From NCBI GenBank assembly GCA_049696035.1, contig JBAVTH010000242.1, positions 4,472-68,471 on the forward strand: 64,000 bases of DNA, given 5' to 3'. This document shows, piece after piece, positions 39,715-54,468 of the stretch (the stretch's first letter is position 1; each line of letters starts with the position of its first letter). The position numbers and the translations under genes were made by a program. The notes beneath the pieces were generated by a model. That model saw nothing but the letters and a program-made list of their open reading frames with translations. It did not search any database and had not been told where the DNA came from. This DNA comes from Ilumatobacteraceae bacterium (GTDB lineage: Bacteria > Actinomycetota > Acidimicrobiia > Acidimicrobiales > Ilumatobacteraceae).

Positions 39715-41370
<1,656 letters not shown>

Positions 41371-41422: not shown

Positions 41423-42817
41423 ATGGAACCAGTGGCAATCGTGGGCGTTTCGGCGATCCTGCCCGACGCGCCCGACGCTGCAACCTTCTGGGACAACGTC
41501 TCGCGCGGTCGCTACTCGATCAGTGAGGTGCTGCCCAGCCGCTGGGATCCCGCCCTGTACTTCGACGAGGACCACGATGCCCCCGACAAGACGTACTCCA
41601 AGATCGGCGGTTGGGTCCGCGACTGGGAGTGGGACCCGCTGGCGTGGAAGCTGCCGATCCCGCCGAAGGTGAGCGATGCGATCGATGACGGCCAGAAGTG
41701 GGCCATTGCGTGCACCCGCGCAGTGCTGGCAGACCACGGCAAGCCGATCGATCATGAACGTACGGCCGTGATCCTCGGGAACGCGATGGCCGGTGAGCAC
41801 CACTACCAGACGGCGCTGCGCATCGCGACTCCCGAGATCGTCCGGGAGCTGCACAGCGCCCCGTCGTTCCAGCAGCTCCCGGCGGAGATGCGCTCGGCGA
41901 TCACCGAAGAGCTGGGCATTCGGATGAGCATGAACTACCCGGAGGTCACCGAGGACACGATGGCGGGCGAGTTGGGCAACGTGATGGCGGGACGGGTGGC
42001 CAACCTGTTCGACTTCCACGGACCGAACTTCATCGTCGACGCTGCCTGCGCCTCGGCGATGGCGGCCATCGACGCGTCGATCGAAGGGCTCATCGAGCAC
42101 GAGTTCGACACCGTGGTCACCGGTGGCATCGACCGCAACATGGGCGCGTCCAGCTTCGTGAAGTTCTGCAAGATCGGTGCACTGTCCGCAACGGGCACGC
42201 GCCCCTTCGACGCCGGCGCCGACGGATTCGTGATGGGGGAGGGCGCCGCCCTGTTCCTGCTGAAGCGGTTGGCCGACGCGGAACGCGACGGCGACCGCGT
42301 GTACGCAGTGCTGCGCGGCATCGCGGGCGCGAGCGATGGCAAGGGCAAGGGCATCACTGCGCCGAACCCGGTGGGCCAGCGGCTGGCGGTGGCGCGAGCA
42401 TGGTCGGCCGCTGGGCTGTCGCCGTCGGCGTGCGGTTTGATGGAGGCCCACGGCACCAGCACCCGCGTCGGCGACGTGGTGGAGGTGACCAGCCTCGGCG
42501 AGGTGTTCGCGAGTGCCGGCCTGGCCCCGGGCGCAGTGGCGCTGGGTTCGGCGAAGTCCAACATCGGCCACCTCAAGGCGGCCGCCGGCGCGGCAGGCAT
42601 CCTCAAGGCGACGCTGGCGCTGCACCACAAGGTGCTGCCGCCGAGCCTCAACTTCTCCGACCCGAACCCGAACATCGACTGGTCGACGTCGCCGTTCCGC
42701 GTGAACACGGAGCTGCGCGAGTGGTCGTCGCCTTCGGCAGGCGGCGTGCGAACGGCCGGTGTCAGTGCCTTCGGCTTCGGTGGCACCAACTTCCACGTGG
42801 TGCTGGAGGAGCACGTG
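41423..42817 (+). other. PKS domain KS1 (PfaA/HglE/PksE-like ketosynthase)
   Basis: DAACAS (Cys209, codon 42047-42049), EAHGTST, SNIGH and GGTNFHVVLEE. N-terminal insertion KIGGWVRDWEWDPLAWKLPIPPKV. Confidence 0.9.
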
Positions 42818-45800
42818 CCGGGCCGGCTGCGGTTCAACGCCCCGAAGATGGTGGCGGTCGGTGCCGACCTCGCGAGTGCGCCGGTGACGGCGGGCGTGGC
42901 CGAGCCGGCGTCGCTCCCCGGAAAGGCGCCGCTGCGAGGTGCGCTCCTGCTGGGCGCCACCAACCAGGCCGACCTCATCGAGCAACTGCGCGGGGTCCTG
43001 GCCGCAGCCGAGTCGGGCGTCGCCCCGGCAGCCGAGCAGCCCAGCGCAGCGGCGCTGGCCGCGCCGGAGCGCCTGGCCATCGACTACGGAGATGCTCGCG
43101 ACTTGGTGGACAAGGCGACGCGGGCGCTCGCCGCCTTCGAGACACCGGCGATGTGGACGATGCTGCGCGGTCGGGGCGTGTTCCGCGGCACGGGGCCGGC
43201 TGCACCGATCGCCTTCATGTACACCGGTCAGGGATCGCAGTACGTGAACATGCTCAGCCAACTGCGCGCCGTCGAGCCGATCGTCGCCGAGCGGTTCGTG
43301 GAGGCCGATCGCGTGATGACGCCATTGCTGGGCAAGCCGCTCAGCGACTACATCTTCATCGACGCCGCCGACCCCGCCGCCGTGGACGCTGCCGAGGAGG
43401 ATCTGCGCAACACGGAGATCACGCAACCGGCAGTGCTGGCGACCGACCTGGCCCTCACCGCCTTGTTGACGGCCTACGGCGTCGAGCCCGACATGGTCAT
43501 CGGCCACAGCCTGGGCGAGTACGGCGCGCTGGTGGCGGCCGGTGCGTTGTCGTTCCCCGGCGCCCTGGAAGCGGTGAGTGCCCGTGGGCACGAGATGGCC
43601 AGCCTCACCGTCGCGGACAACGGGATCATGGCCGCGGTCTTCGCGCCGGTGGACGAGGTGCAGCGCTTGGTGGACGGCATCGACGGCAACGTCGTGCTGG
43701 CCAACGTCAACTCGAACGCCCAGTCGGTGATCGGTGGTGCCACCACGGCAGTGGAGACAGCGCTGGCGGCATGCGAGGAGCGTGGCTGGCTGACAGCGCG
43801 CCTGACCGTGAGCCACGCGTTCCACACCAGCATCGTCGCTGCCGCCAGCGAGCCCCTGCGCCGCACCCTCGAGCGACTGGAGCTGCACGCGCCGATACGT
43901 CCGATCGTCTCGAACGTGACCGGCGAGTTCTATCCGATGGGTCCCGGTGTGGGTGAGACGATGCTCGATCTGTTGGCACAGCAGGTGGCATCTCCGGTGC
44001 AGTTCGTGAAGGGCCTGCACACGCTCTACGACGCGGGCGCCAGAGTGTTCGTCGAGGTCGGCCCCAAGCGCGCGCTGCACGGGTTCGCCACCGACGTGCT
44101 CGGTGAGGACGTCACCGTGCTGTTCACCAATCATCCCAAGCAGACCGATGTCGTCGCCTTCAACCAGGCCCTGTGCGGCCTGTATGCGGCCGGCCATGGC
44201 GCGGCGCGTGACGTCGCCGCCCAGTTCGCCGGCGCACCCACCGTCGCCGCTTCGGTGACCCCTACCTCGACCGATTCCACGAAAGTGAGCAGTGCTGTGC
44301 AGACCGATCTCGGAGCGCTCTTCGACGACTTCCTCGACAAGGCCCGCTCGCTGATGGGCGTCGGCGAGAGCCGGACCCGCACGAACGACGAGCCGGTCGT
44401 GATCACGGGCGCTGCGCTCGGCACGCCCGGCACGCAGCGGGTGTTCGACGACGAGAACCTCGCCCGTTTGCTGCACGGCGAGCAGTTGATCGACGTCATC
44501 CCGGGTCGTCTGCGCAACGAGATCCTCGACAAGCACATCGTTCGGCTGACCAAGAGCGAGACCCGTGGCGCGAGCTTCGAAGCGATCGACAGCGTCGCCG
44601 ATGTGATCAAGCTGGCGGGCCGTGCCGGCTCGTTCGACCTCGCCGCCGAGTTCGGTGTCGAAGCCGACCGCCTGGCCGCCCTCGGCCGAACCACTCAACT
44701 GGCGATCGGTGCTGGGCTCGACGCTCTGCGCGATGCCGGCATCCCGATCGTGCAGCGCTACAAGACCACCCATCTCGGCACCCAGCTGCCGGAGCGCTGG
44801 GGCCTGCCCGACGCGCTGCGCGACGAGACCGGCATCATCTTCGCCAGTGCGTTTCCCGGCCTGGAGGAACTGGCCGACGAGGTGCGCCGCTACGAACAGG
44901 ACCGGGCGCGGCGGCTCGAGCTGGACGAGCTGCAAGCCGTGCGTGCCCGGGTCGCGGAAGCCGACTCGGCCAGCGTGTCGCTGGTGGAGATCGACCGTCG
45001 CATCCACGACGTCCAGCGCGAGCTGGAAGTGCATCCGTATCTCTTCGACCGACGGTTCCTGTTCCGGGTGCTCTCGATGGGTCACTCGCAGTTCGCCGAG
45101 CTGATCGGCGCACGCGGTCCGAACACGCAGATCAACTCGGCGTGCGCCAGCACCACGCAGGCGATCTCGCTGGCCGAGGACTGGATCCGCGCCGGTCGTT
45201 GCCGACGGGTGATCGTCATCGCGGCCGACGATGCGACCAGCGACGACCTGCTCGGCTGGATCGGTGCCGGCTTCCTGGCGACGGGTGCCGCGGCGACCGA
45301 CGAGGACGTGACCGAGGCGGCGCTGCCGTTCGACAAGCGCCGCCACGGCATGATCATCGGAATGGGCGCCGCCGCGCTGGTCGTGGAGAGCGCCGACGCT
45401 GCGCGTGAGCGTGGTGTGCAGCCGATCTGCGAGGTGCTCGGAGCGGTCACCGCCAACAGCGCGTTCCACGGCACCCGTCTTGATGTCGAGCACATCGGCG
45501 GCATCATGGAGGCGGTGGTGCGCCAGGGCGAAGCACGAGGTGCCGATCGCGCGGCGATCGCCAGCGAGCTGGTGTTCGTCTCCCACGAGACCTACACACC
45601 GGCGCGCGGCGGAAGCGCCGCCGCCGAGATCCACGCGCTGCGGCACGTGTTCGGCGTCAACGCCGACCGCATCGTGATCGCCAACACCAAGGGCGTCACC
45701 GGCCACCCGATGGGAGTCGGTCTCGAGGACGTCGTGGCCGTGAAGGCGCTGGAGACCGGGATCGTGCCCCCTGTCGCCAACTTCCGCGAAGTGGATCCCG

Positions 45801-48800
45801 AGCTGGGTTCGCTCAACCTCTCTCGCGGAGGCTCGTACCCGGTGCGGTGTGCCTTGCGGCTGGCCGCCGGCTTCGGCTCGCAGATCAGCATGGTGTTGCT
45901 GCGCTGGACGCCGGTTGCGGACGGCCGTCACCGGGCCCCCGACCAGCTGGGGTACGCCTATCGGATCACTGACCAGGCCAGATGGTCGGGCTGGCTGCGG
46001 AGCATCTCCGGCCAGGAGTCGCCACAGATGGAAGTGGTGCAGCGCCGCCTGCGCATCGTCGACAATGGGCCCGGCGCGCCGGCCACCCCTGCGGCGGCAA
46101 CCCCCGCCGCAGTTGCACCCGTCGCGCCGCGTGCGGTCAACGCCGACACCGCTGCGGCGCCGGTTTCTCCGGCCCCGGCGCCGGCGCCCGCCGTCGCTGC
46201 ACTCGCCGTCGAAGCCGATCCGGTGGTCGCTGCAACGCCTTCAGCGCCTGCAGGGGATGAGGTGGCGGCGACGATCTTGCGGTTGGTGGCGGAGCAGACG
46301 GGGTATCCGCCGGAGATGTTGGATCTGGATCTGGATCTGGAGGCGGATCTGGGTGTGGACACGGTGAAGCAGGCGGAGTTGTTCGCGGCGGTGCGTGAGG
46401 CGTATGGGATCGAGCGTGACGACAAGTTGAAGTTGCGTGACTATCCGACGTTGGCGCATGTGATCGGCTTCGTGCACGATCGTGCCCCGCAGACCGTGCA
46501 GCTGCCGGCCGCTGTCGACGAGCCTGGCAACCTCGATGCGAACCCTGTGGACTCCGGCGACACCCCTCGGTTCCCGCGTCGTGTGCCCGTGCCGGTGGTG
46601 CGCCCTGCACTGGAACTGTGCGAGACAACCGGTGTGGAGTTGGCCGCCGGAGACCGGGTGGTCGTCTACCCCGATACCGGAGGCGCCGCCGTCGCCCTGA
46701 CGGCTTCGCTGGCGGAGATGGGTGTCGAGGTGCTGCTGGTCGACGCTGCGCCGGATCGTGCGACCTTGGAATCGACCCTGCAGGCGTGGCGAGCGGCCGG
46801 CCCCATCAGCGGTGTCTTCTGGTTGCCGGCTCTCGATCAGGTGGACCTCGCCGGGCTCGATCCGGCCTCGTGGTCGGAGGCGTTGCGCGTGCGCGTGAAG
46901 CTGCTGGCGACCACGATGCGCGTGCTGTACGACGACATGACGGCCGGGCACTTCCTGGTCAGCGCCGTCCGATTGGGTGGAAGCTTCGGCTACGACGTAC
47001 CCGGCGCGCAGGACGTGCTCGGTGGCGCCACCAGTGGCTTCACCAAAGCCCTGGCCCGGGAGCGGGCTGATGCGCTGGTCAAGGTGGTCGACTTCGCGAC
47101 AGCGACCCCGGCCGCCGAGGTGGCCGGCCAGCTGCTGGCCGAGGTCACGCACGACCCCGGCATCGTGGAGGTGGGCCGCGCGGGCGGCCTTCGTTGGGGC
47201 ATCGGCGTCGCCGAACGCGACGTCGCGGAGGATCCTGCTCGTCTGCTCGGGCCCGACGACGTGATCGTCGTCACCGGCGCCGCCGGCAGCATCGTCAGTG
47301 CGATCACCACCGACCTCGCAATGGCCTCGCGTGGCACGTTCCACCTCATCGACCTCACTCCCGAGCCGTTGGCCGACGACCCGGACCTGGAGCGCTTCGT
47401 CCACGATCACGACGGTCTCAAGGCCGACATCGCTCACCGCATCACCGAGCGCGGCGAGCGGGCGACTCCGGCGCTGGTCGAACGCGAGCTCGCCCGGCTG
47501 GAGCGGTCGCGGGCGGCGCTGGACGCGATCCAGGCCGTGCAGCGCGCCGGTGGCACCGTCCACTGGTACCAGGCCGATCTCACCGACTTCGCAGCAGTGC
47601 ACGCGGCCGTCGAGCAGATCGTCGCGAGGTCGGGACGGGTCGATGTGCTGCTGCACTGCGCAGGTCTCGAGATCAGCCGCTTCCTGCCCGACAAGACGGA
47701 TCGCGAGTACGACCTCGTCTTCGACGTGAAGAGCAACGGCTGGTTCCACCTGTTGCATGCGTTGGGCGACACCCCGCTCGGCGCCGCTGTCGTGTTCAGC
47801 TCGATCGCCGGCAGGTTCGGCAACGGCGGCCAGACGGACTACAGCGCTGCCAACGATCTGCTGTGCAAGAGCATCTCCGCCTTCCGTTCATCGCGGCCGG
47901 CGACACGAGGCGTCGCCATCGACTGGACAGCGTGGGCGAGCATCGGGATGGCGAGCCGTGGGTCCATCCCGAAGATGATGGCGATGGCCGGGATCGACAT
48001 GCTGCCACCGGAGGTCGGCATCCCGGTGGTCCGTCACGAGCTGACGGCCGCGGGCGCAGGCGGCGAAGTGGTGGTCGCCGGTTCGCTCGGGATCATGTTG
48101 GAGGAGTCGCCGACCGGTGGTCTCGACGCCGTGGCGGCAACCGCCGCGCTGGCGGGCAGCGAGTCGGGACCGATGATCGGCGAGATGGTCGCCTGCACCC
48201 TCCGCGACGGTTTGGTGGTGCGCACCACGCTCACCGCCGGCCAGCCGTTCCTGGACGATCACCGCATCGACGGCACCCCGGTGCTGCCGGGCGTGATGGG
48301 CATGGAGGCCTTTGCCGAAGCTGCCGCAGCGCTCGTGCCGGGGTGGGAGGTGCACTCCCTGAGCGACGTCGAGTTCCTTGCCCCGTTCAAGCTGTATCGC
48401 GACGACTCGCGTGTTGCCGAGATCCGTGCCCGGCTGCTGTGCGGTGAAGGAGGCTCGATCGTCGCCGAGTGCGCGCTGGTCGGTCGCCGGAGCCTCCCCG
48501 GCCAGCCCGAACAGGTCACCACCCACTTCGTCGGCAACGTGGTGCTCGCGCCGGCGGGCAGCGCCCGTCCGGCAGCGAGCGCGCCGGGTGCCACGGCCAA
48601 GAAGCCGCCGGCGTCCGCGGTCGCCGCCGGCAGCATCTACGAGATCTACTTCCACGGTCCCGCCTACCAGGTCCTCGACCAGGCGTGGGCCGAGGATGAG
48701 GTCGTCGTCGGCGCGACCCCGGCCGCGCTGCCGGCCAACCATCAGCCTGACGGCCGGCCGTTGCTGGCCTGGCCACGGCTGGTGGAGCTCTGCTTCCAGA

Positions 48801-49111
48801 CGGCCGGAGTCCACGAACTGGGCACTACTGGCTCGATGGCACTACCGGCCAAGGTCGGGCGTGTCGACATCGTCAGACCATCGAGCGGTGGCACCGGTTC
48901 GCTCGCTGGCGCTCGTGCCGTGGTGACCAGGGCAGGTGGTGGCGACGATGCAGTCGTCGTCGACGCCAAGGGCAAGGTGGTGCTGCACCTCAGTGGCTAC
49001 ACGACCACCGTGCTCCCCGGGGGCCCCGACGATGCGCTCCTGATGCCATTGAGGGCGGCGATGGTGGCAGCCGAGGCGGATCCCGCTCGCGGCCGGCGCA
49101 GCAGGAAGTGA
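41423..49111 (+). CDS. Iterative-type type I polyketide/secondary-lipid synthase with domain order KS-AT-KS-carrier-KR-DH (2562 aa)
   Basis: ORF 41261..49111 trimmed to the ATG at 41423 (MEPVAIVGVSAILPDAP...), with a GAAAGGA RBS at 41408-41414. See the domain entries. Confidence 0.95.
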   Translation: MEPVAIVGVSAILPDAPDAATFWDNVSRGRYSISEVLPSRWDPALYFDEDHDAPDKTYSKIGGWVRDWEWDPLAWKLPIPPKVSDAIDDGQKWAIACTRAVLADHGKPIDHERTAVILGNAMAGEHHYQTALRIATPEIVRELHSAPSFQQLPAEMRSAITEELGIRMSMNYPEVTEDTMAGELGNVMAGRVANLFDFHGPNFIVDAACASAMAAIDASIEGLIEHEFDTVVTGGIDRNMGASSFVKFCKIGALSATGTRPFDAGADGFVMGEGAALFLLKRLADAERDGDRVYAVLRGIAGASDGKGKGITAPNPVGQRLAVARAWSAAGLSPSACGLMEAHGTSTRVGDVVEVTSLGEVFASAGLAPGAVALGSAKSNIGHLKAAAGAAGILKATLALHHKVLPPSLNFSDPNPNIDWSTSPFRVNTELREWSSPSAGGVRTAGVSAFGFGGTNFHVVLEEHVPGRLRFNAPKMVAVGADLASAPVTAGVAEPASLPGKAPLRGALLLGATNQADLIEQLRGVLAAAESGVAPAAEQPSAAALAAPERLAIDYGDARDLVDKATRALAAFETPAMWTMLRGRGVFRGTGPAAPIAFMYTGQGSQYVNMLSQLRAVEPIVAERFVEADRVMTPLLGKPLSDYIFIDAADPAAVDAAEEDLRNTEITQPAVLATDLALTALLTAYGVEPDMVIGHSLGEYGALVAAGALSFPGALEAVSARGHEMASLTVADNGIMAAVFAPVDEVQRLVDGIDGNVVLANVNSNAQSVIGGATTAVETALAACEERGWLTARLTVSHAFHTSIVAAASEPLRRTLERLELHAPIRPIVSNVTGEFYPMGPGVGETMLDLLAQQVASPVQFVKGLHTLYDAGARVFVEVGPKRALHGFATDVLGEDVTVLFTNHPKQTDVVAFNQALCGLYAAGHGAARDVAAQFAGAPTVAASVTPTSTDSTKVSSAVQTDLGALFDDFLDKARSLMGVGESRTRTNDEPVVITGAALGTPGTQRVFDDENLARLLHGEQLIDVIPGRLRNEILDKHIVRLTKSETRGASFEAIDSVADVIKLAGRAGSFDLAAEFGVEADRLAALGRTTQLAIGAGLDALRDAGIPIVQRYKTTHLGTQLPERWGLPDALRDETGIIFASAFPGLEELADEVRRYEQDRARRLELDELQAVRARVAEADSASVSLVEIDRRIHDVQRELEVHPYLFDRRFLFRVLSMGHSQFAELIGARGPNTQINSACASTTQAISLAEDWIRAGRCRRVIVIAADDATSDDLLGWIGAGFLATGAAATDEDVTEAALPFDKRRHGMIIGMGAAALVVESADAARERGVQPICEVLGAVTANSAFHGTRLDVEHIGGIMEAVVRQGEARGADRAAIASELVFVSHETYTPARGGSAAAEIHALRHVFGVNADRIVIANTKGVTGHPMGVGLEDVVAVKALETGIVPPVANFREVDPELGSLNLSRGGSYPVRCALRLAAGFGSQISMVLLRWTPVADGRHRAPDQLGYAYRITDQARWSGWLRSISGQESPQMEVVQRRLRIVDNGPGAPATPAAATPAAVAPVAPRAVNADTAAAPVSPAPAPAPAVAALAVEADPVVAATPSAPAGDEVAATILRLVAEQTGYPPEMLDLDLDLEADLGVDTVKQAELFAAVREAYGIERDDKLKLRDYPTLAHVIGFVHDRAPQTVQLPAAVDEPGNLDANPVDSGDTPRFPRRVPVPVVRPALELCETTGVELAAGDRVVVYPDTGGAAVALTASLAEMGVEVLLVDAAPDRATLESTLQAWRAAGPISGVFWLPALDQVDLAGLDPASWSEALRVRVKLLATTMRVLYDDMTAGHFLVSAVRLGGSFGYDVPGAQDVLGGATSGFTKALARERADALVKVVDFATATPAAEVAGQLLAEVTHDPGIVEVGRAGGLRWGIGVAERDVAEDPARLLGPDDVIVVTGAAGSIVSAITTDLAMASRGTFHLIDLTPEPLADDPDLERFVHDHDGLKADIAHRITERGERATPALVERELARLERSRAALDAIQAVQRAGGTVHWYQADLTDFAAVHAAVEQIVARSGRVDVLLHCAGLEISRFLPDKTDREYDLVFDVKSNGWFHLLHALGDTPLGAAVVFSSIAGRFGNGGQTDYSAANDLLCKSISAFRSSRPATRGVAIDWTAWASIGMASRGSIPKMMAMAGIDMLPPEVGIPVVRHELTAAGAGGEVVVAGSLGIMLEESPTGGLDAVAATAALAGSESGPMIGEMVACTLRDGLVVRTTLTAGQPFLDDHRIDGTPVLPGVMGMEAFAEAAAALVPGWEVHSLSDVEFLAPFKLYRDDSRVAEIRARLLCGEGGSIVAECALVGRRSLPGQPEQVTTHFVGNVVLAPAGSARPAASAPGATAKKPPASAVAAGSIYEIYFHGPAYQVLDQAWAEDEVVVGATPAALPANHQPDGRPLLAWPRLVELCFQTAGVHELGTTGSMALPAKVGRVDIVRPSSGGTGSLAGARAVVTRAGGGDDAVVVDAKGKVVLHLSGYTTTVLPGGPDDALLMPLRAAMVAAEADPARGRRSRK
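43205..44120 (+). other. PKS domain AT (malonyl-type acyltransferase)
   Basis: GQGSQ, GHSLGE (Ser696, codon 43508-43510) and SHAFHT. Confidence 0.9.
44390..45907 (+). other. PKS domain KS2 (FabF-like ketosynthase with a charged helical insertion)
   Basis: NSACAS (Cys1241, codon 45143-45145), SHETYTP and NTKGVTGHPMG. Insertion at about 44850-45060. Confidence 0.85.
46256..46490 (+). other. PKS carrier-protein-like domain with Thr at the phosphopantetheine-serine position
   Basis: LDLDLEADLGVDTVKQAELF. ACG (Thr1647) at 46361-46363 occupies the position of the canonical DS(L/I) serine. By hand translation the roughly 78-aa domain has no Ser at all. Confidence 0.75.
46520..48110 (+). other. PKS domain KR (structural and catalytic subdomains)
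   Basis: VIVVTGAAGSIV (from 47261), SSIAGRFGNGGQTDYSAAN (Tyr2140, codon 47840-47842). Confidence 0.85.
48170..48990 (+). other. PKS domain DH (polyketide-synthase-type double hotdog)
   Basis: LDDHRIDGTPVLPG (His2280, codon 48260-48262), YFHGPAYQVL and ELCFQTAG. Confidence 0.8.
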
Positions 49112-50300
49112 CCGAGATGGCGACCATCACCCGACTGGCCATCGTCAATCGCGGCGCCGCCGCGATGCGGCTGATCAACGCTGCCCGCGAATACGCCGCC
49201 GAGTTGCAGCGCGACCTGCAGATCGTCGCCGTTCACGTCGATGCCGACGCTCGCTCCCTGTTCGTGCGGGAAGCCGACTTCGCGGTTCGGGTCGACGGCC
49301 CGATCTCCGTCGACAACCTCGATGCGCTGGAGGAGGCACTGAGGCTGGCGGAGGTTGACGGCGCATGGGTCGGTTGGGGTCCACTCGCGCAGCAACCGGC
49401 GTTCGCGGAGATGTGCGTGCGGATGGGCATCACCAACGTCGGCCTCGGCGCGGACACGCTGAGGAGCATCGCCGATCGCTCGCTGCTGCAGGCCGCGGCC
49501 GAGTCTGCCGGCGGTCGCCTCTCGCCGTTGGAGATCGTCGAGCGCGGATACGCCCGCCACATCGAGGTGCTCGTGGCCGGCGACCGCTTCGGCGACGTGT
49601 GGGCCGTCGGCGTCCACGATGGCACCCTGCAGCGGCGCTCGGAGAAGGTGCTGGTCGAGTCGGCAGACGAGCGGTTGATCGGGGTGGCCGGCGATCTGCT
49701 GCGTTCGGTGGCCGTTCGCGTGGCCTCACTGACGGGTGTGGTGGGTGCGGCCACGATCGCATTCGTCCGCGAGGACCTCGCTGCCGATGTGTCGCTCCTC
49801 CGCATCAGCGGCGGTCTTCCCCTTGGTCATGGCGTCACCGAGATCGCCGGTGGCATCGACCTGGCGAAGCTGCAACTGCACATCGCCGAAGGCGGACGCC
49901 TCGTCGGGGCCGCGCCGATCGGTGACGGGCATGCGATCGCGGTGCGTCTCAACGCCGAGGATGCCGAGTTGGGTTTCGCCCCGGCTCCGGGGCGCGTCCT
50001 GCTGCTGCAGGTGCCCACCGGCCCCGGCCTGCGCATCGACCCGGCCGTTTCGGAGGGTGATGTCGTGCGCCCCGGCGACGACCCGACGCTGGCGGAGGTG
50101 GTTGCCTGGGGTCGTGATCGGGACGAGGCGCGGGTGCGGCTGCGTCGTGCGCTCGCCCAGCTGCCGGTCGTCCTGGACGGTGGAACGACGAACAAGGGCT
50201 TCCTGCTGGATCTGCTCGACCGCGCGGAGGTGCGCGCCGGTCAGTACGACACCGGCTGGCTCGACCGGCTGGCTGCCGCGGGTGAGACCGCAGGCCGCGA
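49108..50300 (+). other. Degenerate biotin-carboxylase (ATP-grasp) domain
   Basis: By-eye alignment to E. coli AccC. About 60-65 residues carrying the glycine-rich lid are absent, and the Mg/ATP/bicarbonate residues are substituted (see finding). Confidence 0.65.
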
Positions 50301-53300
50301 GCACGGTGACAAGGCGGTGCTGATGGCCGCGGTCGACGCCTACGACGAGCGGCAGCGGAGCAGTCGCGCCCGTCTGTTCGCCACCGCGAGACGCGGCCGG
50401 CCAGAGGTGTCGAGTGAGCTCGGGCATCGCGTCGAGCTGTGTCACCGAGGCAACGAGTACGGGGTCTTCGTGCGCCGCACGGGCCGCCGGCAGTACCGGG
50501 TGGCCGTCGACGGTGTCGAGATCGGTCTGGTCGTCACCCGCCTCGGCCGTTACCAGAGCCGGCTCGACGTAGGGGGCCGGTCGCACCGCATCGTGTCCGC
50601 CATTCAGGCCGGCGACCACTTGGTGGAGGTGGACGGAGTGCCGCACCGGCTCTCGCGGGGCGACGGCGGCATCGTTCGATCCGGGCTGCCCGGTGTGGTG
50701 GTTGCCGTCCACGTCCAAGTCGGCGACGAGGTCGCGGTGAACGATGCGCTCGCCACCATCGAGAGCATGAAGATGGAGAGCCCGGTGCTCGCCCCGTTCG
50801 CCGGGAGGGTTCGCCAGGTCTGCATCGGCACCAACGTCCAGGTCGACTCGGGTGCGCCGCTGGTGCATCTCGAGCCGATCAGCCACGGCCGGGCCGCGCT
50901 CGGGGAGTCGCGATGCACGTTCAGCGCCCCCGACGACCCTGCCCTTCCGTCGGTGGCGAGCCGCTTCGCGGCGAACCTCGACACGCTGACGCGGCTGATC
51001 ATGGGGTACGACGTGGCCGTCGCGGCGACCAAGCGTGTCGCCGCCGAACAGGTGGACATCGCTCGCGAGTTGGGCGCCGATGCGCCCGAGCGCGTCGTCG
51101 GTGAGCTGCGCCTGCTGGATGTCTTCGCCGACGTGCGCGCTCTGTTCCGCAGTGAACGCGATCCGAGCGGCAACGACCTGGAAGAGGCCGATCTGCTGGT
51201 GACCAGCCCGCAGGAGTACATGCACGCCTTCCTGCGGGCGCCGGGCCCCAACGTGGAAGGGGTGCCGCAGCGCTATCTCGAGGCGCTCGGTCGCGCGCTC
51301 GCCCACTACGGCATTCGCTCCCTCGAGCACACCGAGGCGTTGGAGGAGGCGCTCTTCTGGATCATGCAGTCCCGCGGTCGCATCGACGCCCAGGTGCCCG
51401 TCATCGTGGCGGTGCTGAACCACTGGCTGGACCGCCCGGCCGTCGGTGTCGGCGAACAGTTGCGCGAGACGCTCGACCGTTTGGTGGCAGCGACACAACG
51501 CGACCATCCGGTGATCGCCGATCTCGCGCGGGAGGTGCGCTTCACCGCCATCGACCGGCCCATCGTGGATGCTGTCCGGCGCGACGTGCTGACGGCCGCC
51601 CTTGCGCATCTCGACGATCTGGTGGCAGGCAACGGCGACCGTGCGGGTCATCTGGAGGCGATCGTCGCCTGCGCGGAACCGTTGGAGTTCGCCTTGCTCG
51701 ATCGGGCCCGCTCCGGGACCGTGGCCACTGCCGATGCCGTCGCTGAACTGCTGACTCGCCGGCACCACCGGTGGGGCACCTTCGGTGAGTTCACCCGACT
51801 CGGGCACGCGCCGGTGGCGATGGCCGTTGATCACGTGGCAGACGACGGCGCCACCGTTCGAATCGTTGCCGCCTGCGCACCCTTCTCGTCACTGACGGCG
51901 GCGGTCGCGGCTGTGCTCGATCATGCTCGCGACAGCGCGACGCCCGTGCAGGCCGAGGTCTACACATGGCTGGACGACGGTGATGTGGACGACGACGCGG
52001 TGACGGCTGCCGCCGAGGCTGCACTGGCGCATCACTGGACGGGCGACGCCGACACCTCCGTGCAGTATGCGGTGATCGCGGTGGCGGGGACGTCGGAGGA
52101 CTCGGACCTGGGTGATCGGCGCGTGTTGCACGTGACGTTCCGGCCCACGCTCGAGGGTTTGGTCGAGGATCGGTTCCTCCGCGGATTGCACCCGATGATG
52201 GCCGAGCGGTTGCGCCTGTGGCGCCTCTCGAACTTCAACTTGGAGCGCCTTGCCTCGACCACGGGGGTGCACCTGTTCCGTGGCATCGGTCGAGACAACG
52301 CGAGCGACGAACGTCTCTTCGCAATCGCCGAAGTGCGCGACCTGACGCCGGTGCGCGATGACGGCGGCCGCATCGTCGCGCTCCCGGAGCTGGAGCGCAC
52401 CCTGCTGGCGGCGATGGAGGCCATCCGCCGCGTCCAGGCGCCGCGTCCGTTGGGTCAGCGCCTGTGGTGGAACCGGATCGTGCTGCGGGTGTGGCCGCCG
52501 GTGACGTTCAGCCCCGAGGAGATCGGGCGTCTTGCCGCCGAGCTCGCCGGGGCGGCGACAGGGCTTGGGTTGGAGGAGGTGCACGTGCTGTGCTCCCGTG
52601 TCGATGCCGCCACCGGGGCGAAACGCGACGTCGCGCTGCGGTTCACGAGCACGACGGGCTCGAGCTTCGTGCTGCGCGAGACCGAGCAGCCCACCGAGCC
52701 CCTGGTGCCGCTCGACGAGTACTCGAGGAAGGTCGTGCAGAGCCGCCGCCGAGGGACGATCTATCCCTACGAGCTGATCCGTGGGTTGGTGGCGCCGCAT
52801 GCCGGCGGCCGGTCCGAGATCACCGGTGGCGGCTTCACCGAGTACGACCTGGGCGAGACCGGCGCGCTCGTGCCCGTGCACCGACCACCGGGGCGAAACG
52901 TCGCCAGCATCGTCGTGGGAGTGGTGACCAACACGTCCGACCGATACCCGGAGGGCATGATCAGGGTCGCGTTGCTCGGCGACCCGACACGAGCCCTCGG
53001 CGCCTTGGCAGAGCCCGAGTGCGTGCGGATCATGGCCGCCATCGATCTCGCGGAGCAGATGGGAGTGCCGGTGGAGTGGTATGCGCTGTCGGCCGGCGCC
53101 AAGATCGCGATGGACAGCGGTACCGAGAACATGGACTGGATCGCCGACGTGCTGCGGCGCATCATCGAGTTCACCCAGCAGGGTGGGGAGATCAACGTCG
53201 TGGTCACGGGCATCAACGTCGGTGCCCAGCCGTACTGGAACGCCGAGGCGACGATGCTGATGCACACCAAGGGCATCTTGGTGATGACGCCGTCGAGTGC

Positions 53301-54468
53301 GATGGTGCTCACCGGCAAGCAGGCGCTCGACTTCAGCGGTGGTGTGTCGGCGGAGGACAACCACGGCATCGGCGGCTACGAGCGGGTGATGGGGCCCAAC
53401 GGCCAGGCCCAGTACTGGGCGGCCGACGTACCGGCCGCCTGTGGTGTCTTGCTCGCGCACTACGCCCACAGCTACTCGGCGCCCGGCGAACGCTTCCCGC
53501 GACGGGCGGCGACGTCCGACCCGTTCGACCGAGACGTCCGCTCGGCGCGGCATCACCTGGAGGGCTCCGACCTGGCAACCGTCGGCGACATCTTCAGCGA
53601 GCACAGCAACCCGGAACGCAAGAAGCCCTTCGACATCCGCTCGGTCATGCGGGCCGTGCTCGATGCCGATCACCAGCCGCTCGAACGGTGGGCCGACCTC
53701 GCGGAGAGCGACACAGCGGTGGTGTGGGACGGCCAACTCGGTGGTATCCCCGTCTGTGTCATCGGCATCGAGGCCCACGCACTCGCCCGTCAAGGTCGTC
53801 TGCCTGCTGACGGCCCCGATCAGTGGACATCAGGCACCCTCTTCCCGATGTCGTCGAAGAAGATCGCCCGGGCGGTCAACGCCACGAGCGGCAGCCAGCC
53901 GCTCGTCGTGCTCGCGAACCTGTCCGGTTTCGACGGCTCTCCCGAGTCGATGCGGCGCACCCAGCTCGAGTTCGGTGCCGAGATCGGCCGTGCGGTGGTG
54001 AACTTCCGCGGCCCGATCGTGTTCTGCGTGGTCAGTCGCTTCCATGGCGGAGCGTTCGTGGTCTTCAGTCAGAAGCTGAACCCGATGCTCGAGACGCTGG
54101 CCGTCGAGGGGTCGCACGCCTCGGTGATCGGCGGGTCGCCGGCGGCGGCGGTGGTCTTCGCCGGGGAGGTGGAGAAGCGCACCCGTGCCGATGCCCGCGT
54201 CGTGGAGCTGGAGGCGCGGATCGCATCTGCGGCGCCGGGTGAGCGCGCCACGTTGCGCAGCGAACTGGTGACGACGCTTGCACAGGCGCACTCGGATCAA
54301 CTGGGCGCGGTGGCGGCCGAGTTCGACGCGATCCACAGCGTGGAGCGTGCGCTGGCGGTGGGATCGGTGAGCCGGATCATTCCGGCCGCACAACTGAGGC
54401 CGTTGCTGATCGATGCGGTGGAACGTGGGATGAGCCGTGCGGTCGAACGGTCGAGTGGGGAGATGTGA
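49108..54468 (+). CDS. Single-chain multidomain biotin carboxylase-like protein with eukaryote-style layout (BC-like, BCCP, central region, carboxyltransferase); 1786 aa
   Basis: The GTG at 49108 overlaps the PKS stop (GTGA); the ATG at 49117 is an alternative. BC-like N-terminus (IVNRGAAAMRLI..., ARHIEVLVAGD, QRRSEKV). Biotinyl motif IESMKME (Lys555, codon 50770-50772). CT strings SAGAKIAMDSG, LGGIPVCVIGIE and LANLSGFDGS. Confidence 0.9.
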   Translation: MTEMATITRLAIVNRGAAAMRLINAAREYAAELQRDLQIVAVHVDADARSLFVREADFAVRVDGPISVDNLDALEEALRLAEVDGAWVGWGPLAQQPAFAEMCVRMGITNVGLGADTLRSIADRSLLQAAAESAGGRLSPLEIVERGYARHIEVLVAGDRFGDVWAVGVHDGTLQRRSEKVLVESADERLIGVAGDLLRSVAVRVASLTGVVGAATIAFVREDLAADVSLLRISGGLPLGHGVTEIAGGIDLAKLQLHIAEGGRLVGAAPIGDGHAIAVRLNAEDAELGFAPAPGRVLLLQVPTGPGLRIDPAVSEGDVVRPGDDPTLAEVVAWGRDRDEARVRLRRALAQLPVVLDGGTTNKGFLLDLLDRAEVRAGQYDTGWLDRLAAAGETAGREHGDKAVLMAAVDAYDERQRSSRARLFATARRGRPEVSSELGHRVELCHRGNEYGVFVRRTGRRQYRVAVDGVEIGLVVTRLGRYQSRLDVGGRSHRIVSAIQAGDHLVEVDGVPHRLSRGDGGIVRSGLPGVVVAVHVQVGDEVAVNDALATIESMKMESPVLAPFAGRVRQVCIGTNVQVDSGAPLVHLEPISHGRAALGESRCTFSAPDDPALPSVASRFAANLDTLTRLIMGYDVAVAATKRVAAEQVDIARELGADAPERVVGELRLLDVFADVRALFRSERDPSGNDLEEADLLVTSPQEYMHAFLRAPGPNVEGVPQRYLEALGRALAHYGIRSLEHTEALEEALFWIMQSRGRIDAQVPVIVAVLNHWLDRPAVGVGEQLRETLDRLVAATQRDHPVIADLAREVRFTAIDRPIVDAVRRDVLTAALAHLDDLVAGNGDRAGHLEAIVACAEPLEFALLDRARSGTVATADAVAELLTRRHHRWGTFGEFTRLGHAPVAMAVDHVADDGATVRIVAACAPFSSLTAAVAAVLDHARDSATPVQAEVYTWLDDGDVDDDAVTAAAEAALAHHWTGDADTSVQYAVIAVAGTSEDSDLGDRRVLHVTFRPTLEGLVEDRFLRGLHPMMAERLRLWRLSNFNLERLASTTGVHLFRGIGRDNASDERLFAIAEVRDLTPVRDDGGRIVALPELERTLLAAMEAIRRVQAPRPLGQRLWWNRIVLRVWPPVTFSPEEIGRLAAELAGAATGLGLEEVHVLCSRVDAATGAKRDVALRFTSTTGSSFVLRETEQPTEPLVPLDEYSRKVVQSRRRGTIYPYELIRGLVAPHAGGRSEITGGGFTEYDLGETGALVPVHRPPGRNVASIVVGVVTNTSDRYPEGMIRVALLGDPTRALGALAEPECVRIMAAIDLAEQMGVPVEWYALSAGAKIAMDSGTENMDWIADVLRRIIEFTQQGGEINVVVTGINVGAQPYWNAEATMLMHTKGILVMTPSSAMVLTGKQALDFSGGVSAEDNHGIGGYERVMGPNGQAQYWAADVPAACGVLLAHYAHSYSAPGERFPRRAATSDPFDRDVRSARHHLEGSDLATVGDIFSEHSNPERKKPFDIRSVMRAVLDADHQPLERWADLAESDTAVVWDGQLGGIPVCVIGIEAHALARQGRLPADGPDQWTSGTLFPMSSKKIARAVNATSGSQPLVVLANLSGFDGSPESMRRTQLEFGAEIGRAVVNFRGPIVFCVVSRFHGGAFVVFSQKLNPMLETLAVEGSHASVIGGSPAAAVVFAGEVEKRTRADARVVELEARIASAAPGERATLRSELVTTLAQAHSDQLGAVAAEFDAIHSVERALAVGSVSRIIPAAQLRPLLIDAVERGMSRAVERSSGEM

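What the first reader, a model, noticed from the sequence alone, without database searches (positions are those of the whole stretch)
46256..46490. Carrier domain without any serine ([13 protein letters not shown]) sitting in a sharp codon-usage island
Seen: the only carrier-like domain of the PKS reads [78 protein letters not shown]. The position of the phosphopantetheinylated serine (canonical D-S-L/I) is ACG, Thr (46361-46363), and by my hand translation there is no Ser anywhere in the domain. The same ~235 nt switch codon style. By hand count there are about 7 TTG Leu and no CTC; 4 CGT Arg and no CGC; 3 TAT Tyr and no TAC; 6 GAT against 4 GAC; and 9 of 10 Ala as GCG. The rest of the gene and window strongly prefers C-ending codons (GAC, CGC, TAC, CTC/CTG, GCC). 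Established: Sfp-type PPTases modify a conserved Ser. Inference: there are three possibilities. (a) The co-translated PPTase modifies Thr, which would be a non-canonical linkage. (b) The domain is a pseudo-carrier and the synthase needs a trans ACP that is not in this window. (c) The segment was imported or gene-converted from a donor with different codon usage, or it is under an mRNA-level constraint.
Basis: partly seen in the sequence, partly recalled or inferred. Interest (0 to 1): 0.75.

Follow-up and report, generated by a model that had tools for sequence, protein, structure and literature searches.

The report
Threonine-site acyl carrier domain family
The carrier domain of this lipid/polyketide synthase has threonine where all known carriers have the serine that holds the phosphopantetheine arm; this holds across hundreds of bacterial genomes that always keep a dedicated transferase, so it may be an undescribed threonine-linked cofactor attachment, and its DNA also has an extreme, unexplained G-versus-C strand bias.

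Summary
Both observations are real. ACG (Thr) at 46361-46363 sits where profile, pairwise and structural alignments place the phosphopantetheinylated Ser. The domain has no Ser or Cys, and the 64 kb window holds no other carrier.

The Thr is not an error. It is invariant in 547/547 carriers of 120 full-length homologues and in 274/276 copies in 75 loci. Among 150 diverse representatives the position is Thr 412 times, Ser 8 times, and nothing else.

The gene is the pfaA-like synthase of the uncharacterised "Type R" secondary-lipid cluster (Shulse & Allen 2011). It lies in a conserved operon: ACAD-like, synthase, single-chain carboxylase, Sfp-type PPTase. In many relatives the PPTase is fused to the synthase.

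The most likely reading, untested, is a functional ACP whose arm is attached to Thr by the dedicated PPTase.

The codon island (46217-46462) has 12/78 C-ending codons against 37.6±3.6 expected, z≈−7. It is not foreign DNA. Actinobacterial relatives carry near-identical tandem carriers with extreme GC skew of either sign: G/T-ending here, C/A-ending in close relatives. mRNA folding does not explain this, and the cause is unknown.

Caveat: the single-carrier count may be an assembly collapse.

The parts
39715..41370 (+). Acyl-CoA dehydrogenase-like gene (551 aa, with a ~165-aa C-terminal extension). It is the first gene of the conserved operon and a possible stand-in for the missing enoyl reductase (inference).
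   Evidence: Pfam PF02771/PF02770/PF00441. NCBIfam nearest is acryloyl-CoA reductase, below cut-off. It lies upstream on the same strand in 52 of 53 loci with full flanks.
41423..49111 (+). pfaA-like iterative synthase: KS, AT, second KS, carrier, KR, DH.
   Evidence: Pfam domains. 100% identical to an NCBI MAG Ilumatobacteraceae protein of 2562 aa. TIGR02813 PfaA scores 807.8 bits, below its cut-off of 1010.1.
44948..46060 (+). Second ketosynthase-like domain, called 'CLF' in the 2011 classification. By eye it keeps Cys (ACAST) and two His (SHETYTP, GVTGHP).
   Evidence: Second PF00109/PF02801 stretch and PF08545 hit at ORF residues 1291-1326. Motifs read from the translation; not tested further.
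46256..46489 (+). Carrier (ACP-like) domain of the Thr type, motif [20 protein letters not shown].
   Evidence: PF00550 E 7.3e-9. AF2 model plus Foldseek matches to ACPs. Family conservation profile.
46361..46363 (+). ACG codon: Thr at the position of the phosphopantetheinylated Ser.
   Evidence: Thr in 547/547, 274/276 and 412/420 family copies; the remaining 8 of the 420 are Ser.
46217..46462 (+). Codon-usage / GC-skew island: G3 0.66, C3 0.10, T3 0.21, A3 0.04.
   Evidence: Maximum-scoring segment 30.2 against a null maximum of 14.7. Resampling test. GC skew +0.34 to +0.40 in 150-nt windows.
47333..47938 (+). Ketoreductase domain.
   Evidence: PF08659 E 8e-27.
48170..49027 (+). PKS-type dehydratase domain with the HxxxGxxxxP motif (DDHRIDGTPVLP).
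   Evidence: PF21089 and PF14765. Motif read.
49108..54468 (+). Single-chain biotin carboxylase / BCCP / ACC-central / carboxyltransferase protein, the presumed malonyl-CoA supplier. Its GTG start overlaps the synthase stop (GTGA).
   Evidence: Pfam. Junction sequence. Present in 47 of 53 complete loci.
54465..55166 (+). Sfp/HetI-type 4'-phosphopantetheinyl transferase. Its GTG start overlaps the carboxylase stop (GTGA).
   Evidence: PF01648 E 2.4e-12. Family alignment has invariant H95, D113, E115, W154, K157, E158 and K162. The family profile hits Sfp 1qr0/4mrt at 8.5e-8. Junction sequence. Present downstream in 52 of 53 complete loci.

Best explanation
Thr carrier. The domain is a working acyl carrier domain of an iterative PfaA-like ('Type R' secondary-lipid) synthase. 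In this family the 4'-phosphopantetheine arm is attached to an invariant threonine instead of serine. The arm is installed by the Sfp-type transferase encoded at the end of the same operon, which is translationally coupled here and fused to the synthase in many relatives.

Pathway. The carboxylase supplies malonyl-CoA. AT loads the carrier. The two KS domains, KR and DH, perhaps with the ACAD-like flavoprotein acting as reductase, build an unknown lipid.

What is shown and what is inferred.
- Shown: fold, alignment of the Thr to the attachment site, family-wide invariance, Ser as the only alternative residue, operon conservation and PPTase fusion, and intact PPTase catalytic motifs.
- Inferred: that the Thr hydroxyl is actually phosphopantetheinylated.

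Codon island. It is a separate, DNA-level property of the carrier cassette. In actinobacterial members the carriers form tandem arrays homogenised to 96-100% nucleotide identity. These arrays have drifted or been driven to extreme GC skew of either sign. This lineage carries the G/T-ending form, and the single copy here is a remnant, or an assembly collapse, of such an array. The driving force is not established. A strand-asymmetric C-to-T mutation pressure acting on a recombining repeat is my leading guess.
For: Attachment site.
- PF00550 match.
- The Thr aligns to the Ser of solved ACPs.
- The Thr caps helix II in a pLDDT-81.6 model whose best Foldseek matches listed (top 50) are all ACPs.

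Invariance.
- 137/137, 547/547 and 274/276 copies have Thr.
- In 150 representatives at 34-70% identity there are 412 Thr, 8 Ser (P0296, P0384, P0328) and no other residue.
- No conserved Ser or Cys occurs elsewhere in the domain.

Carrier-like behaviour.
- Arrays of 1-7 copies, with a mode of 5, as in PfaA, where productivity scales with the number of active-Ser ACPs (PMC5067506).
- No other ACP in the window.

PPTase.
- Downstream on the same strand in 52 of 53 complete loci.
- GTGA start/stop overlaps at both junctions.
- A C-terminal PPTase-like motif, taken as a fused PPTase domain, in 24 of 64 long relatives, including the Ser-type P0296.
- Catalytic H, DxE and WxxKExxxK are invariant, and the family profile matches Sfp, AcpS, AASDHPPT and EntD.

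Cluster identity.
- The Type R description in PMC3098273 matches the domain order, the downstream PPTase and the intervening ACC gene.

Codon island.
- Significance.
- Opposite dialects in the same clade: window and L081 are G/T-ending; L002, L082 and L007 are C/A-ending.
- The same codon is used at conserved residues in 0.15 of carrier positions against 0.57 in the rest of the gene (window versus L002), and in 0.80 against 0.58 (window versus L081).
- Linker amino acids follow the bias: Val-rich in L081, Thr/Pro/Gln-rich in L002.
- Tandem copies are 92-100% identical in Actinomycetota against 74-91% in the other phyla sampled (mostly Acidobacteriota), which show no island.
Against: Against Thr modification.
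- No direct evidence that any PPTase modifies Thr. In my searches of the held library no paper describes Thr-linked phosphopantetheine.
- E. coli ACP S36T is used in the field as a phosphopantetheine-site mutant and loses arm-dependent binding (PMC13343975).
- The PPTase shows no obvious active-site novelty in the motifs I could read.

Against the cassette model of the island.
- Three actinobacterial loci (L078, L005, L021) have about 100% identical repeats but little skew, so homogenisation alone is not sufficient.
- A replication-strand explanation is not supported. The window's + strand looks like the leading strand, but C/A-type L082 also gives a positive estimate, from one gene.
- At four-fold sites C is replaced mainly by G (31 G, 5 T, 2 C; derived from the codon counts), which a pure C-to-T pressure does not predict without added selection for GC-ending codons.
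Confidence: 0.6

Rival explanations
1. Pseudo-carrier. The Thr domains are not modified. They serve as structural spacers or docking modules, and the synthase uses a Ser-type ACP encoded elsewhere, which is also the PPTase's real substrate.
For: Thr is not a known PPTase acceptor, and S36T is treated as a dead site in E. coli ACP. In PfaA, inactivated ACPs still raise productivity by a structural effect (PMC5067506). Only 64 kb of this genome, and about 20 kb of the others, could be inspected.
Against: A position that no longer needs a nucleophile should drift to Ala, Gly or Asn. Instead only Thr (412) or Ser (8) is seen, and the flanking DLGxD-VKQAE motif is invariant across phyla. No Ser-type carrier lies in the operon or in the window. 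The PPTase is fused to synthases whose only carriers are Thr-type. All KS/AT/KR/DH partners sit in cis, as in carrier-dependent megasynthases.
Confidence: 0.13
2. Other chemistry at the Thr hydroxyl. It might be used for direct O-acyl (oxoester) tethering of intermediates, or carry another phosphodiester-linked group. The PPTase homologue would then have a changed donor or acceptor.
For: The strict hydroxyl requirement (Thr or Ser only) fits any O-linked chemistry. As a single sequence the PPTase is too divergent to hit any PDB chain, and it scores far below the HetI equivalog cut-off (33.6 against 370 bits).
Against: The CoA/Mg-binding and catalytic motifs of Sfp-type PPTases are all invariant, and the family profile matches Sfp and AcpS. 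KS, KR and DH domains of this class act on thioesters held on a long arm, and a direct ester on the helix cap could not reach the active sites (established knowledge of type I FAS/PKS; inference here).
Confidence: 0.07
3. Selection on the mRNA. The codon island would be selected for low secondary structure, or for slow translation through rare codons (TTG, CGT, TAT, GAT) that aids co-translational folding or modification of the carrier.
For: Both dialects raise the share of locally rare codons: T-ending here, A-ending (GAA, AAA, CAA) in L002. C/A-type arrays are much less structured than synonymous recodings, z +2.7 to +4.9. Synonymous sites in the island are more alike between the window and L081 (0.80) than in the rest of the gene (0.58).
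Against: The window's own carrier RNA is as structured as its recodings (z +0.2), and so is L023 (-0.1). Acidobacterial members and three actinobacterial members have no island although the protein is the same. The bias spills into linker amino-acid composition, which points to a compositional force rather than a translational one. No Rfam family matches.
Confidence: 0.15
4. Recent import. The island would be a horizontal import or gene conversion of the carrier segment from another organism or paralogue.
For: The boundaries are sharp. The carrier DNA is closest to the more distant Acidimicrobiales loci L023 (87-88% nt) and L003 (82%) and least like the closer relative L002. Dialect does not follow the phylogeny of the rest of the gene.
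Against: At the protein level the carrier follows the gene tree: 97% to L081 and 87% to L002, against 86% to L023. L081, the nearest relative, has the same dialect. No known genome-wide codon usage has C3 near 0.1 with G3 near 0.65. The similarity to L023 can be explained by a shared bias.
Confidence: 0.1

Closest known systems
Tandem ACP domains of PUFA synthase subunit PfaA (e.g. Shewanella, Photobacterium)
   Same: ACP fold. LEADLGIDxxK-type helix-II motif. Tandem arrays of 3-7 copies separated by Ala/Pro-rich linkers. The arrays lie between the KS-AT region and the KR-DH region. A dedicated Sfp-type PPTase (PfaE) is encoded in the cluster.
   Different: PfaA ACPs have an 'active Ser' (PMC5067506), whereas here the residue is Thr in essentially every copy. 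The synthase also carries the second KS in the same polypeptide. There is no PfaB/C/D set. TIGR02813 scores below its cut-off.
'Type R' secondary lipid synthase gene cluster (Shulse & Allen 2011, PMC3098273)
   Same: One pfaA homologue with KS-MAT-CLF-ACP(3-6)-KR, followed by a PPTase gene. An acetyl-CoA carboxylase gene lies between them in Koribacter. The cluster is spread over Acidobacteria and other phyla, and its product is unknown. Korobacteraceae loci are among the relatives found here.
   Different: The paper does not mention threonine (0 occurrences), the upstream ACAD-like gene, or any codon or GC-skew feature. The 'CLF' here keeps Cys/His/His by eye. Actinomycetota members were not in the 2011 set.
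Sfp / HetI / PfaE group II phosphopantetheinyl transferases
   Same: Two-lobed ACPS fold family (PF01648 plus PF17837). Invariant His, DxE and WxxKExxxK motifs. Encoded next to its megasynthase substrate.
   Different: All characterised members transfer to Ser (established knowledge). This subfamily is consistently paired or fused with Thr-type carriers. It is divergent: the single sequence has no PDB hit and scores far below the HetI cut-off.
E. coli ACP S36T mutant
   Same: The same Ser-to-Thr exchange at the cap of helix II.
   Different: In E. coli the mutant is used as a phosphopantetheine-site variant and loses arm-dependent binding (PMC13343975). Here Thr is the natural, conserved state in a system that keeps its own PPTase.
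Concerted evolution of tandem repeats, and strand-asymmetric (GC-skew) mutation as seen on replication leading strands or R-loop-prone regions
   Same: Near-identical tandem copies. Mirror-image G+T against C+A enrichment, as expected from one process acting on either DNA strand.
   Different: The skew is confined to a 0.25-1.5 kb intragenic block. It reaches |0.35-0.56|, changes sign between relatives, and could not be tied to replication direction. I know of no described precedent; this is a resemblance, not a tested membership.

Membership tests
Acyl/peptidyl carrier domain (Pfam PF00550 PP-binding) | Sequence match to the family profile above the curated cut-off | tested here: met
   36.2 bits against a cut-off of 20.8 for the excised domain, and 29.5 bits within the whole protein.
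Acyl/peptidyl carrier domain (Pfam PF00550 PP-binding) | Helical-bundle ACP fold with the attachment residue at the N-terminus of helix II | tested here: met
   AF2 model with pLDDT 81.6. DSSP lists three helices of 4 or more residues (8-21, 42-56, 72-82) plus a short turn at 66-68, read as the usual short helix III, and Thr42 is the first residue of helix II. Foldseek matches ACPs at TM 0.63-0.86 (the best-fitting at rmsd 1.4-1.8 A).
Acyl/peptidyl carrier domain (Pfam PF00550 PP-binding) | Conserved Ser (D-S-L/I) as the phosphopantetheine attachment site | tested here: not met
   Thr (ACG 46361-46363) occupies that column. Thr is found in 547/547 and 274/276 family copies. Ser occurs in only 8 of 420 copies among distant representatives.
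Acyl/peptidyl carrier domain (Pfam PF00550 PP-binding) | Covalent 4'-phosphopantetheine on the domain | not testable with these tools
   Needs mass spectrometry of the protein. It is only inferred here, from PPTase linkage and fusion.
Type R secondary lipid synthase cluster (Shulse & Allen 2011) | A single pfaA homologue with KS-MAT-CLF-ACPn-KR | tested here: met
   KS, AT, second KS-like domain, carrier, KR and DH in one ORF. Relatives have 1-7 carriers.
Type R secondary lipid synthase cluster (Shulse & Allen 2011) | PPTase gene downstream, optionally with an ACC gene in between as in Koribacter | tested here: met
   ACC at 49108-54468 and PPTase at 54465-55166. The same order is found in 46 of 53 complete loci, and the PPTase alone in 52 of 53.
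Type R secondary lipid synthase cluster (Shulse & Allen 2011) | The proximal KS falls in the Type R clade of their KS tree | not tested
   Their reference sequences (Koribacter, Solibacter, Roseiflexus, Elusimicrobium) were not retrievable by name. Korobacteraceae and Solibacteraceae MAG loci are among the homologues, at 64-67% KR identity.
PUFA synthase PfaA (NCBIfam TIGR02813) | Whole-protein score above the curated cut-off | tested here: not met
   807.8 bits against a cut-off of 1010.1, and the best matched stretch covers only the KS-AT part.
Sfp-type (group II) 4'-phosphopantetheinyl transferase | ACPS-superfamily domain plus the N-terminal 4PPT lobe | tested here: met
   PF01648 scores 47.3 bits against a cut-off of 25. 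PF17837 scores 25.9 against 27, just below. The family profile hits Sfp 1qr0/4mrt at 8.5e-8 and AASDHPPT at 1e-6.
Sfp-type (group II) 4'-phosphopantetheinyl transferase | Catalytic and Mg/CoA-binding motifs (His; D-x-E; W/F-x-x-K-E-x-x-x-K) | tested here: met
   H95, D113, E115, W154, K157, E158 and K162 are invariant in 28 family members.
Sfp-type (group II) 4'-phosphopantetheinyl transferase | Transfers phosphopantetheine from CoA to a carrier Ser | not testable with these tools
   Needs an activity assay. The only carriers available in cis have Thr.

The most novel reading that the evidence does not exclude
A large, multi-phylum superfamily of PfaA-like lipid synthases uses O-(4'-phosphopantetheinyl)-threonine, not serine, as its natural carrier linkage. 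The superfamily has at least 516 species-level genomes in one capped scan, and thousands of representative proteins match at E<=1e-30 (an upper bound, since some are probably generic KS/KR hits). The arm would be installed by a co-evolved Sfp-type PPTase subfamily that is adjacent to or fused with the synthase. This would be the first natural exception to the Ser rule for carrier proteins. In addition, the carrier arrays of the actinobacterial members would be subject to an undescribed strand-asymmetric hypermutation or conversion process that recodes them wholesale into G/T-ending or C/A-ending forms.
Probability: 0.5. Interest if true: 0.85.

Novelty: new variant of a known kind. Interest (0 to 1): 0.76.

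Why it matters
The Ser-linked phosphopantetheine arm is treated as universal for fatty-acid, polyketide and non-ribosomal peptide synthesis. Annotation rules, active-site mutagenesis (Ser to Ala) and carrier-tagging technology all assume it.

If Thr is the acceptor:
- The known chemistry of PPTases would widen.
- New orthogonal carrier/PPTase pairs would become available for labelling and pathway engineering.
- A more beta-elimination-resistant or phosphodiesterase-resistant linkage is one possible rationale (speculation).
- A specific handle would exist on an abundant soil-bacterial lipid pathway (Acidobacteriota, Acidimicrobiia, Thermoleophilia) whose product has been unknown since 2011.

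The question is directly testable with one co-expression and one mass spectrum.

If Thr is not modified, the family would be an example of megasynthases whose tandem 'carriers' are all inactive, which would be equally unexpected.

The GC-skew dialects matter for two reasons. They are a clean natural case for studying how tandem coding repeats evolve at the DNA level. They also show that such arrays are mis-assembled and mis-called in metagenomes.

Tried and rejected
Rejected.
1. Sequencing error at the Thr codon: rejected by family-wide invariance and by the independent assembly L081.
2. A second canonical ACP in the gene or window: none found by Pfam or by six-frame phmmer with E. coli AcpP, a type II PKS (actinorhodin-type) ACP sequence entered from memory, and the Thr carrier itself.
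3. An alternative attachment residue: the domain has no Ser or Cys, and no conserved Ser or Cys column exists in 547 copies.
4. Selection for unstructured mRNA as a common cause of the island: rejected for this window and for L023 (z +0.2 and -0.1), although it holds for C/A-type arrays.
5. A structured RNA or a repeat element in 45800-46900: no Rfam match at E<=1, no direct repeats, and only weak inverted repeats.
6. Antisense ORFs over the island (e.g. 46241-47758 on the minus strand): treated as high-GC artefacts and not pursued.

Inconclusive or negative.
7. Replication-strand orientation as the determinant of skew sign: the window's + strand looks like the leading strand, but the 20 kb loci hold too few opposite-strand genes, and the one usable C/A-type locus (L082) argues against the idea.
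8. Single-sequence PDB search with the PPTase: no hits. The family profile was needed.
9. Literature: ten searches, covering Thr-linked phosphopantetheine, Ser-to-Thr carriers, later work on Type R, and the motif strings GIDTVK, GVDTVK and DTVKQAE, found nothing relevant beyond Shulse & Allen 2011. A 2026 survey of PUFA-synthase hybrids has none of the five terms I searched in it (threonine, Acidobacteri-, carboxylase, acyl-CoA dehydrogenase, Type R).
10. My first ORF-based codon table was distorted by frameshifted assemblies and was replaced by tblastn-anchored counts.


Full report
WHAT IS THERE

The window is high-GC DNA from an Ilumatobacteraceae (Acidimicrobiia) metagenome-assembled genome. 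The synthase is 100% identical to an NCBI MAG protein of 2562 aa.

ORF 41423-49111 encodes, in order: KS, AT, a second KS-like domain, one PP-binding domain, KR and a PKS-type DH. Two genes follow it. The first is a 1786-aa single-chain biotin carboxylase / BCCP / carboxyltransferase (49108-54468). The second is a 233-aa Sfp-type PPTase (54465-55166). Both junctions are GTGA start/stop overlaps. An acyl-CoA-dehydrogenase-like gene (39715-41370) precedes the synthase.

- PF00550 matches the excised domain at 36.2 bits against a cut-off of 20.8.
- Pairwise HMMER alignments to solved ACPs (PigH 5y08, 2ehs, 2cnr) put the Thr on their DS(L/I) serine.
- An AlphaFold model built on 31 family sequences (pLDDT 81.6) shows the ACP helical bundle with the Thr as the first residue of helix II. 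The best Foldseek matches listed (top 50) are all ACPs, with TM 0.63-0.86.
- No other ACP-like sequence exists in any frame of the 64 kb window.

- Against synonymous resampling with the window's own codon usage, the domain has 12 C-ending codons where 37.6 +/- 3.6 are expected. None of 200,000 resamples was as low.
- It has 51 G-ending codons where 30.5 +/- 3.4 are expected.
- Its GC skew is +0.35 (z = 8.4).
- No other 78-codon window in 25 genes of the window goes below C3 = 0.23.
- A maximum-scoring-segment analysis bounds the island at 46217-46462.

THE THREONINE IS A FAMILY HALLMARK

A search with the 92-aa carrier returned 1096 proteins. The best 120 hold 137 copies of DLG[IV]DTVK, all with Thr.

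The full-length search returned 120 homologues at 59-80% identity. They come from Acidimicrobiia, Thermoleophilia, Acidobacteriota and Binatia, and they hold 547 carriers, all with Thr. Most proteins have 4-6 tandem copies.

In the 75 of the 80 retrieved loci, plus the window itself, in which carrier copies were detected, 274 of 276 copies have Thr and 2 could not be read because of gaps.

Column-by-column conservation is extreme. About 25 of 78 positions are invariant, giving the consensus [19 protein letters not shown][VI]DTVKQAE...[11 protein letters not shown].FV. No Ser or Cys column is conserved.

An exhaustive HMMER search of 1.84 billion representative proteins gave 3329 hits at E<=1e-30. 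In the best 150, at 34-70% identity and with several architectures, the position is Thr 412 times and Ser 8 times. The Ser copies are in P0296, P0384 and P0328, within otherwise typical family motifs. No other residue occurs. A ninth 'Ser' match lies in the DH domain and is not a carrier.

A position that tolerates only the two hydroxyl amino acids is what one expects of a site whose hydroxyl is chemically used.

THE PPTASE BELONGS TO THE CARRIERS

- In 52 of 53 loci with complete flanks a PPTase homologue lies downstream on the same strand. In 46 of them the full four-gene order is kept: ACAD-like, synthase, carboxylase, PPTase.
- In 24 of 64 long representatives a PPTase-like motif sits in the last 260 residues. 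The six C-termini inspected also carry the other PPTase motifs, so I read these as PPTase domains fused to the C-terminus of the synthase. This group includes the Ser-type P0296.
- The PPTase family keeps the His, D-x-E and W-x-x-K-E-x-x-x-K motifs without exception.
- As a profile it matches Sfp, AcpS, human AASDHPPT and EntD. The single sequence is too divergent to hit any PDB chain.

WHAT IT IS CALLED

The cluster fits the 'Type R' secondary-lipid synthase type of Shulse & Allen (PLoS One 2011, PMC3098273). That type has one pfaA homologue with KS-MAT-CLF-ACP(3-6)-KR, a downstream PPTase, an ACC gene in between in Koribacter, and an unknown product. The paper does not mention threonine.

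In canonical PfaA the carriers have an 'active Ser', and output scales with the number of active carriers (PMC5067506). E. coli ACP S36T is used as a phosphopantetheine-site mutant (PMC13343975).

I found no paper describing Thr-linked phosphopantetheine or this motif. The library does not cover most subscription journals.

MOST LIKELY MECHANISM

The carrier is functional, and its arm is attached to Thr by the operon's own PPTase.
- Shown: fold, site alignment, invariance with Ser as the only alternative, multiplicity like functional PUFA ACPs, absence of any other carrier, and PPTase linkage, fusion and intact motifs.
- Inferred: the modification itself.

I put this at about 0.6. A pseudo-carrier served by a distant ACP gets about 0.13, and other O-linked chemistry about 0.07. 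Both remain possible.

THE CODON ISLAND IS PART OF A LARGER, STRANGE PATTERN

Using tblastn-anchored, in-frame carrier DNA from all loci, the Acidobacteriota and other moderate-GC members show no difference between the carriers and the rest of the gene. The high-GC Actinomycetota members show strong deviations in either direction.

G/T-ending forms:
- This window: G3 0.65, C3 0.15, T3 0.19, A3 0.00.
- L081, its nearest relative at 85% aa identity overall: G3 0.56, C3 0.13, T3 0.31. L081 also has a Val-rich linker.
- L023 and L003 share this form more mildly.

C/A-ending forms:
- L002 and L082 belong to the same clade as the window (87-90% identical in KS2), and L007 is another Ilumatobacteraceae locus. 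They have the mirror image: C3 0.74-0.79, A3 0.13-0.19, G3 0.02-0.10, T3 about 0.
- They use GAA, AAA and CAA where the genome prefers G-ending codons. L002 has Thr/Pro/Gln-rich linkers.
- In L002 the block of GC skew, -0.3 to -0.56, covers the whole 1.5 kb array.

Codon sharing at conserved residues:
- Window versus L002: the same codon in 15% of carrier positions against 57% in the rest of the gene.
- Window versus L081: 80% against 58%.

Repeat identity: the tandem copies are 92-100% identical at the DNA level in Actinomycetota, but only 74-91% in the other phyla sampled (mostly Acidobacteriota).

The island is therefore a property of a concertedly evolving cassette, not an import from a genome with another codon usage.

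WHAT DRIVES THE SKEW IS NOT SETTLED

- mRNA structure is not the common factor. The window's native carrier RNA folds as stably as its synonymous recodings (z +0.2), and so does L023 (-0.1). Only the C/A forms are less structured (z +2.7 to +4.9).
- The mirror symmetry (G+T against C+A), the TTG-for-CTG usage, and the Ala-to-Val or Ala-to-Thr drift of linkers all fit C-to-T pressure on one or the other DNA strand.
- However, four-fold sites go mainly to G rather than T (counts derived).
- Three loci with identical repeats lack skew.
- I could not link the sign of the skew to replication direction.
- No RNA family or repeat element explains it.

I report it as unexplained, with strand-asymmetric mutation or biased conversion in a recombining array as the leading idea.

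CAVEAT ON COPY NUMBER

Near-identical 330-bp tandem repeats are collapsed or fragmented by short-read assemblers.
- Many of the short 'proteins' are out-of-frame fragments of carrier repeats.
- L082 contains frameshifted extra copies.
- Loci whose contig names indicate k-mer (short-read) assemblies tend to show 1-2 carriers, while MFD-labelled loci, which I take to be long-read, show 3-5.

The single carrier in this window may therefore be an under-count.

VERDICT

- The Thr carrier is a new variant of a known kind. It is widespread, apparently unreported, and testable with one mass spectrum.
- The GC-skew dialects are a second, independent curiosity.
- Interest is 0.76.

Noticed in passing
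L002:7825-9400; L082:10900-11800; L007:1582-1929; L081:7265-7560: Carrier arrays of actinobacterial relatives have extreme intragenic GC skew of either sign (-0.56 to +0.40). Wholesale synonymous recoding separates close relatives, and linker amino acids follow the bias (Thr/Pro/Gln-rich versus Val-rich). The cause is unknown.
   Followed up: partly
window 46256-46489 (copy number); loci L003, L007, L017, L063, L066 versus L002, L009, L044, L078: Loci whose contig names indicate k-mer (short-read) assemblies show 1-2 carriers. MFD-labelled loci, which I take to be long-read (not verified), show 3-5 copies that are nearly identical. The single carrier in this window may be an assembly collapse of a tandem array.
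   Followed up: partly
P0001-P0120; L082:10909-11560: Many database 'proteins' of 80-160 aa are fragments of carrier repeats that run into out-of-frame translations, for example ...WTWIWIWRRIWASTR. In L082 the called gene reads through two frameshifted carrier copies as a Ser/Thr/Pro-rich pseudo-linker. Gene calls across these arrays are unreliable.
   Followed up: partly
window 44948-46060: The second KS-like domain, termed CLF in the 2011 classification, appears to keep the Cys-His-His triad (ACAST, SHETYTP, GVTGHP). It may therefore be a second active ketosynthase rather than a chain-length factor.
   Followed up: no
window 39715-41370: The ACAD-like gene is conserved immediately upstream of the synthase in nearly all loci and has a ~165-aa C-terminal extension with no Pfam match. 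The synthase has no ER domain, so this flavoprotein might act as the enoyl reductase.
   Followed up: no
P0277, P0281, P0287, P0290, P0292, P0294, P0296 and others (C-termini); P0284, P0292, P0293, P0298 (N-termini): More distant Thr-carrier synthases carry a fused C-terminal PPTase domain. Some also have large N-terminal extensions, and a few have carriers both before and after the KS-AT region (P0254, P0258). The Thr-carrier superfamily is therefore architecturally broader than 'Type R'.
   Followed up: partly
L001 (CAYZFZ010000072.1): The closest KR match (91%) lies on a contig labelled 'uncultured Bifidobacterium sp.'. It has the same ACC, PPTase and beta-lactamase-like gene order as the window, so the contig is probably mis-binned Acidimicrobiia DNA.
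   Followed up: no
window 1-64000: Four-fold-site GC skew is -0.03 for + strand genes and -0.18 for - strand genes, and T exceeds A on + strand genes. This suggests that the + strand, which is the synthase sense strand, is the replication leading strand.
   Followed up: partly
window 46304-46350: The [12 protein letters not shown] stretch is encoded as GAT CTG repeats. This gives four GATC sites within about 45 nt, and L081 has a similar pattern. I did not examine whether it is of any significance.
   Followed up: no
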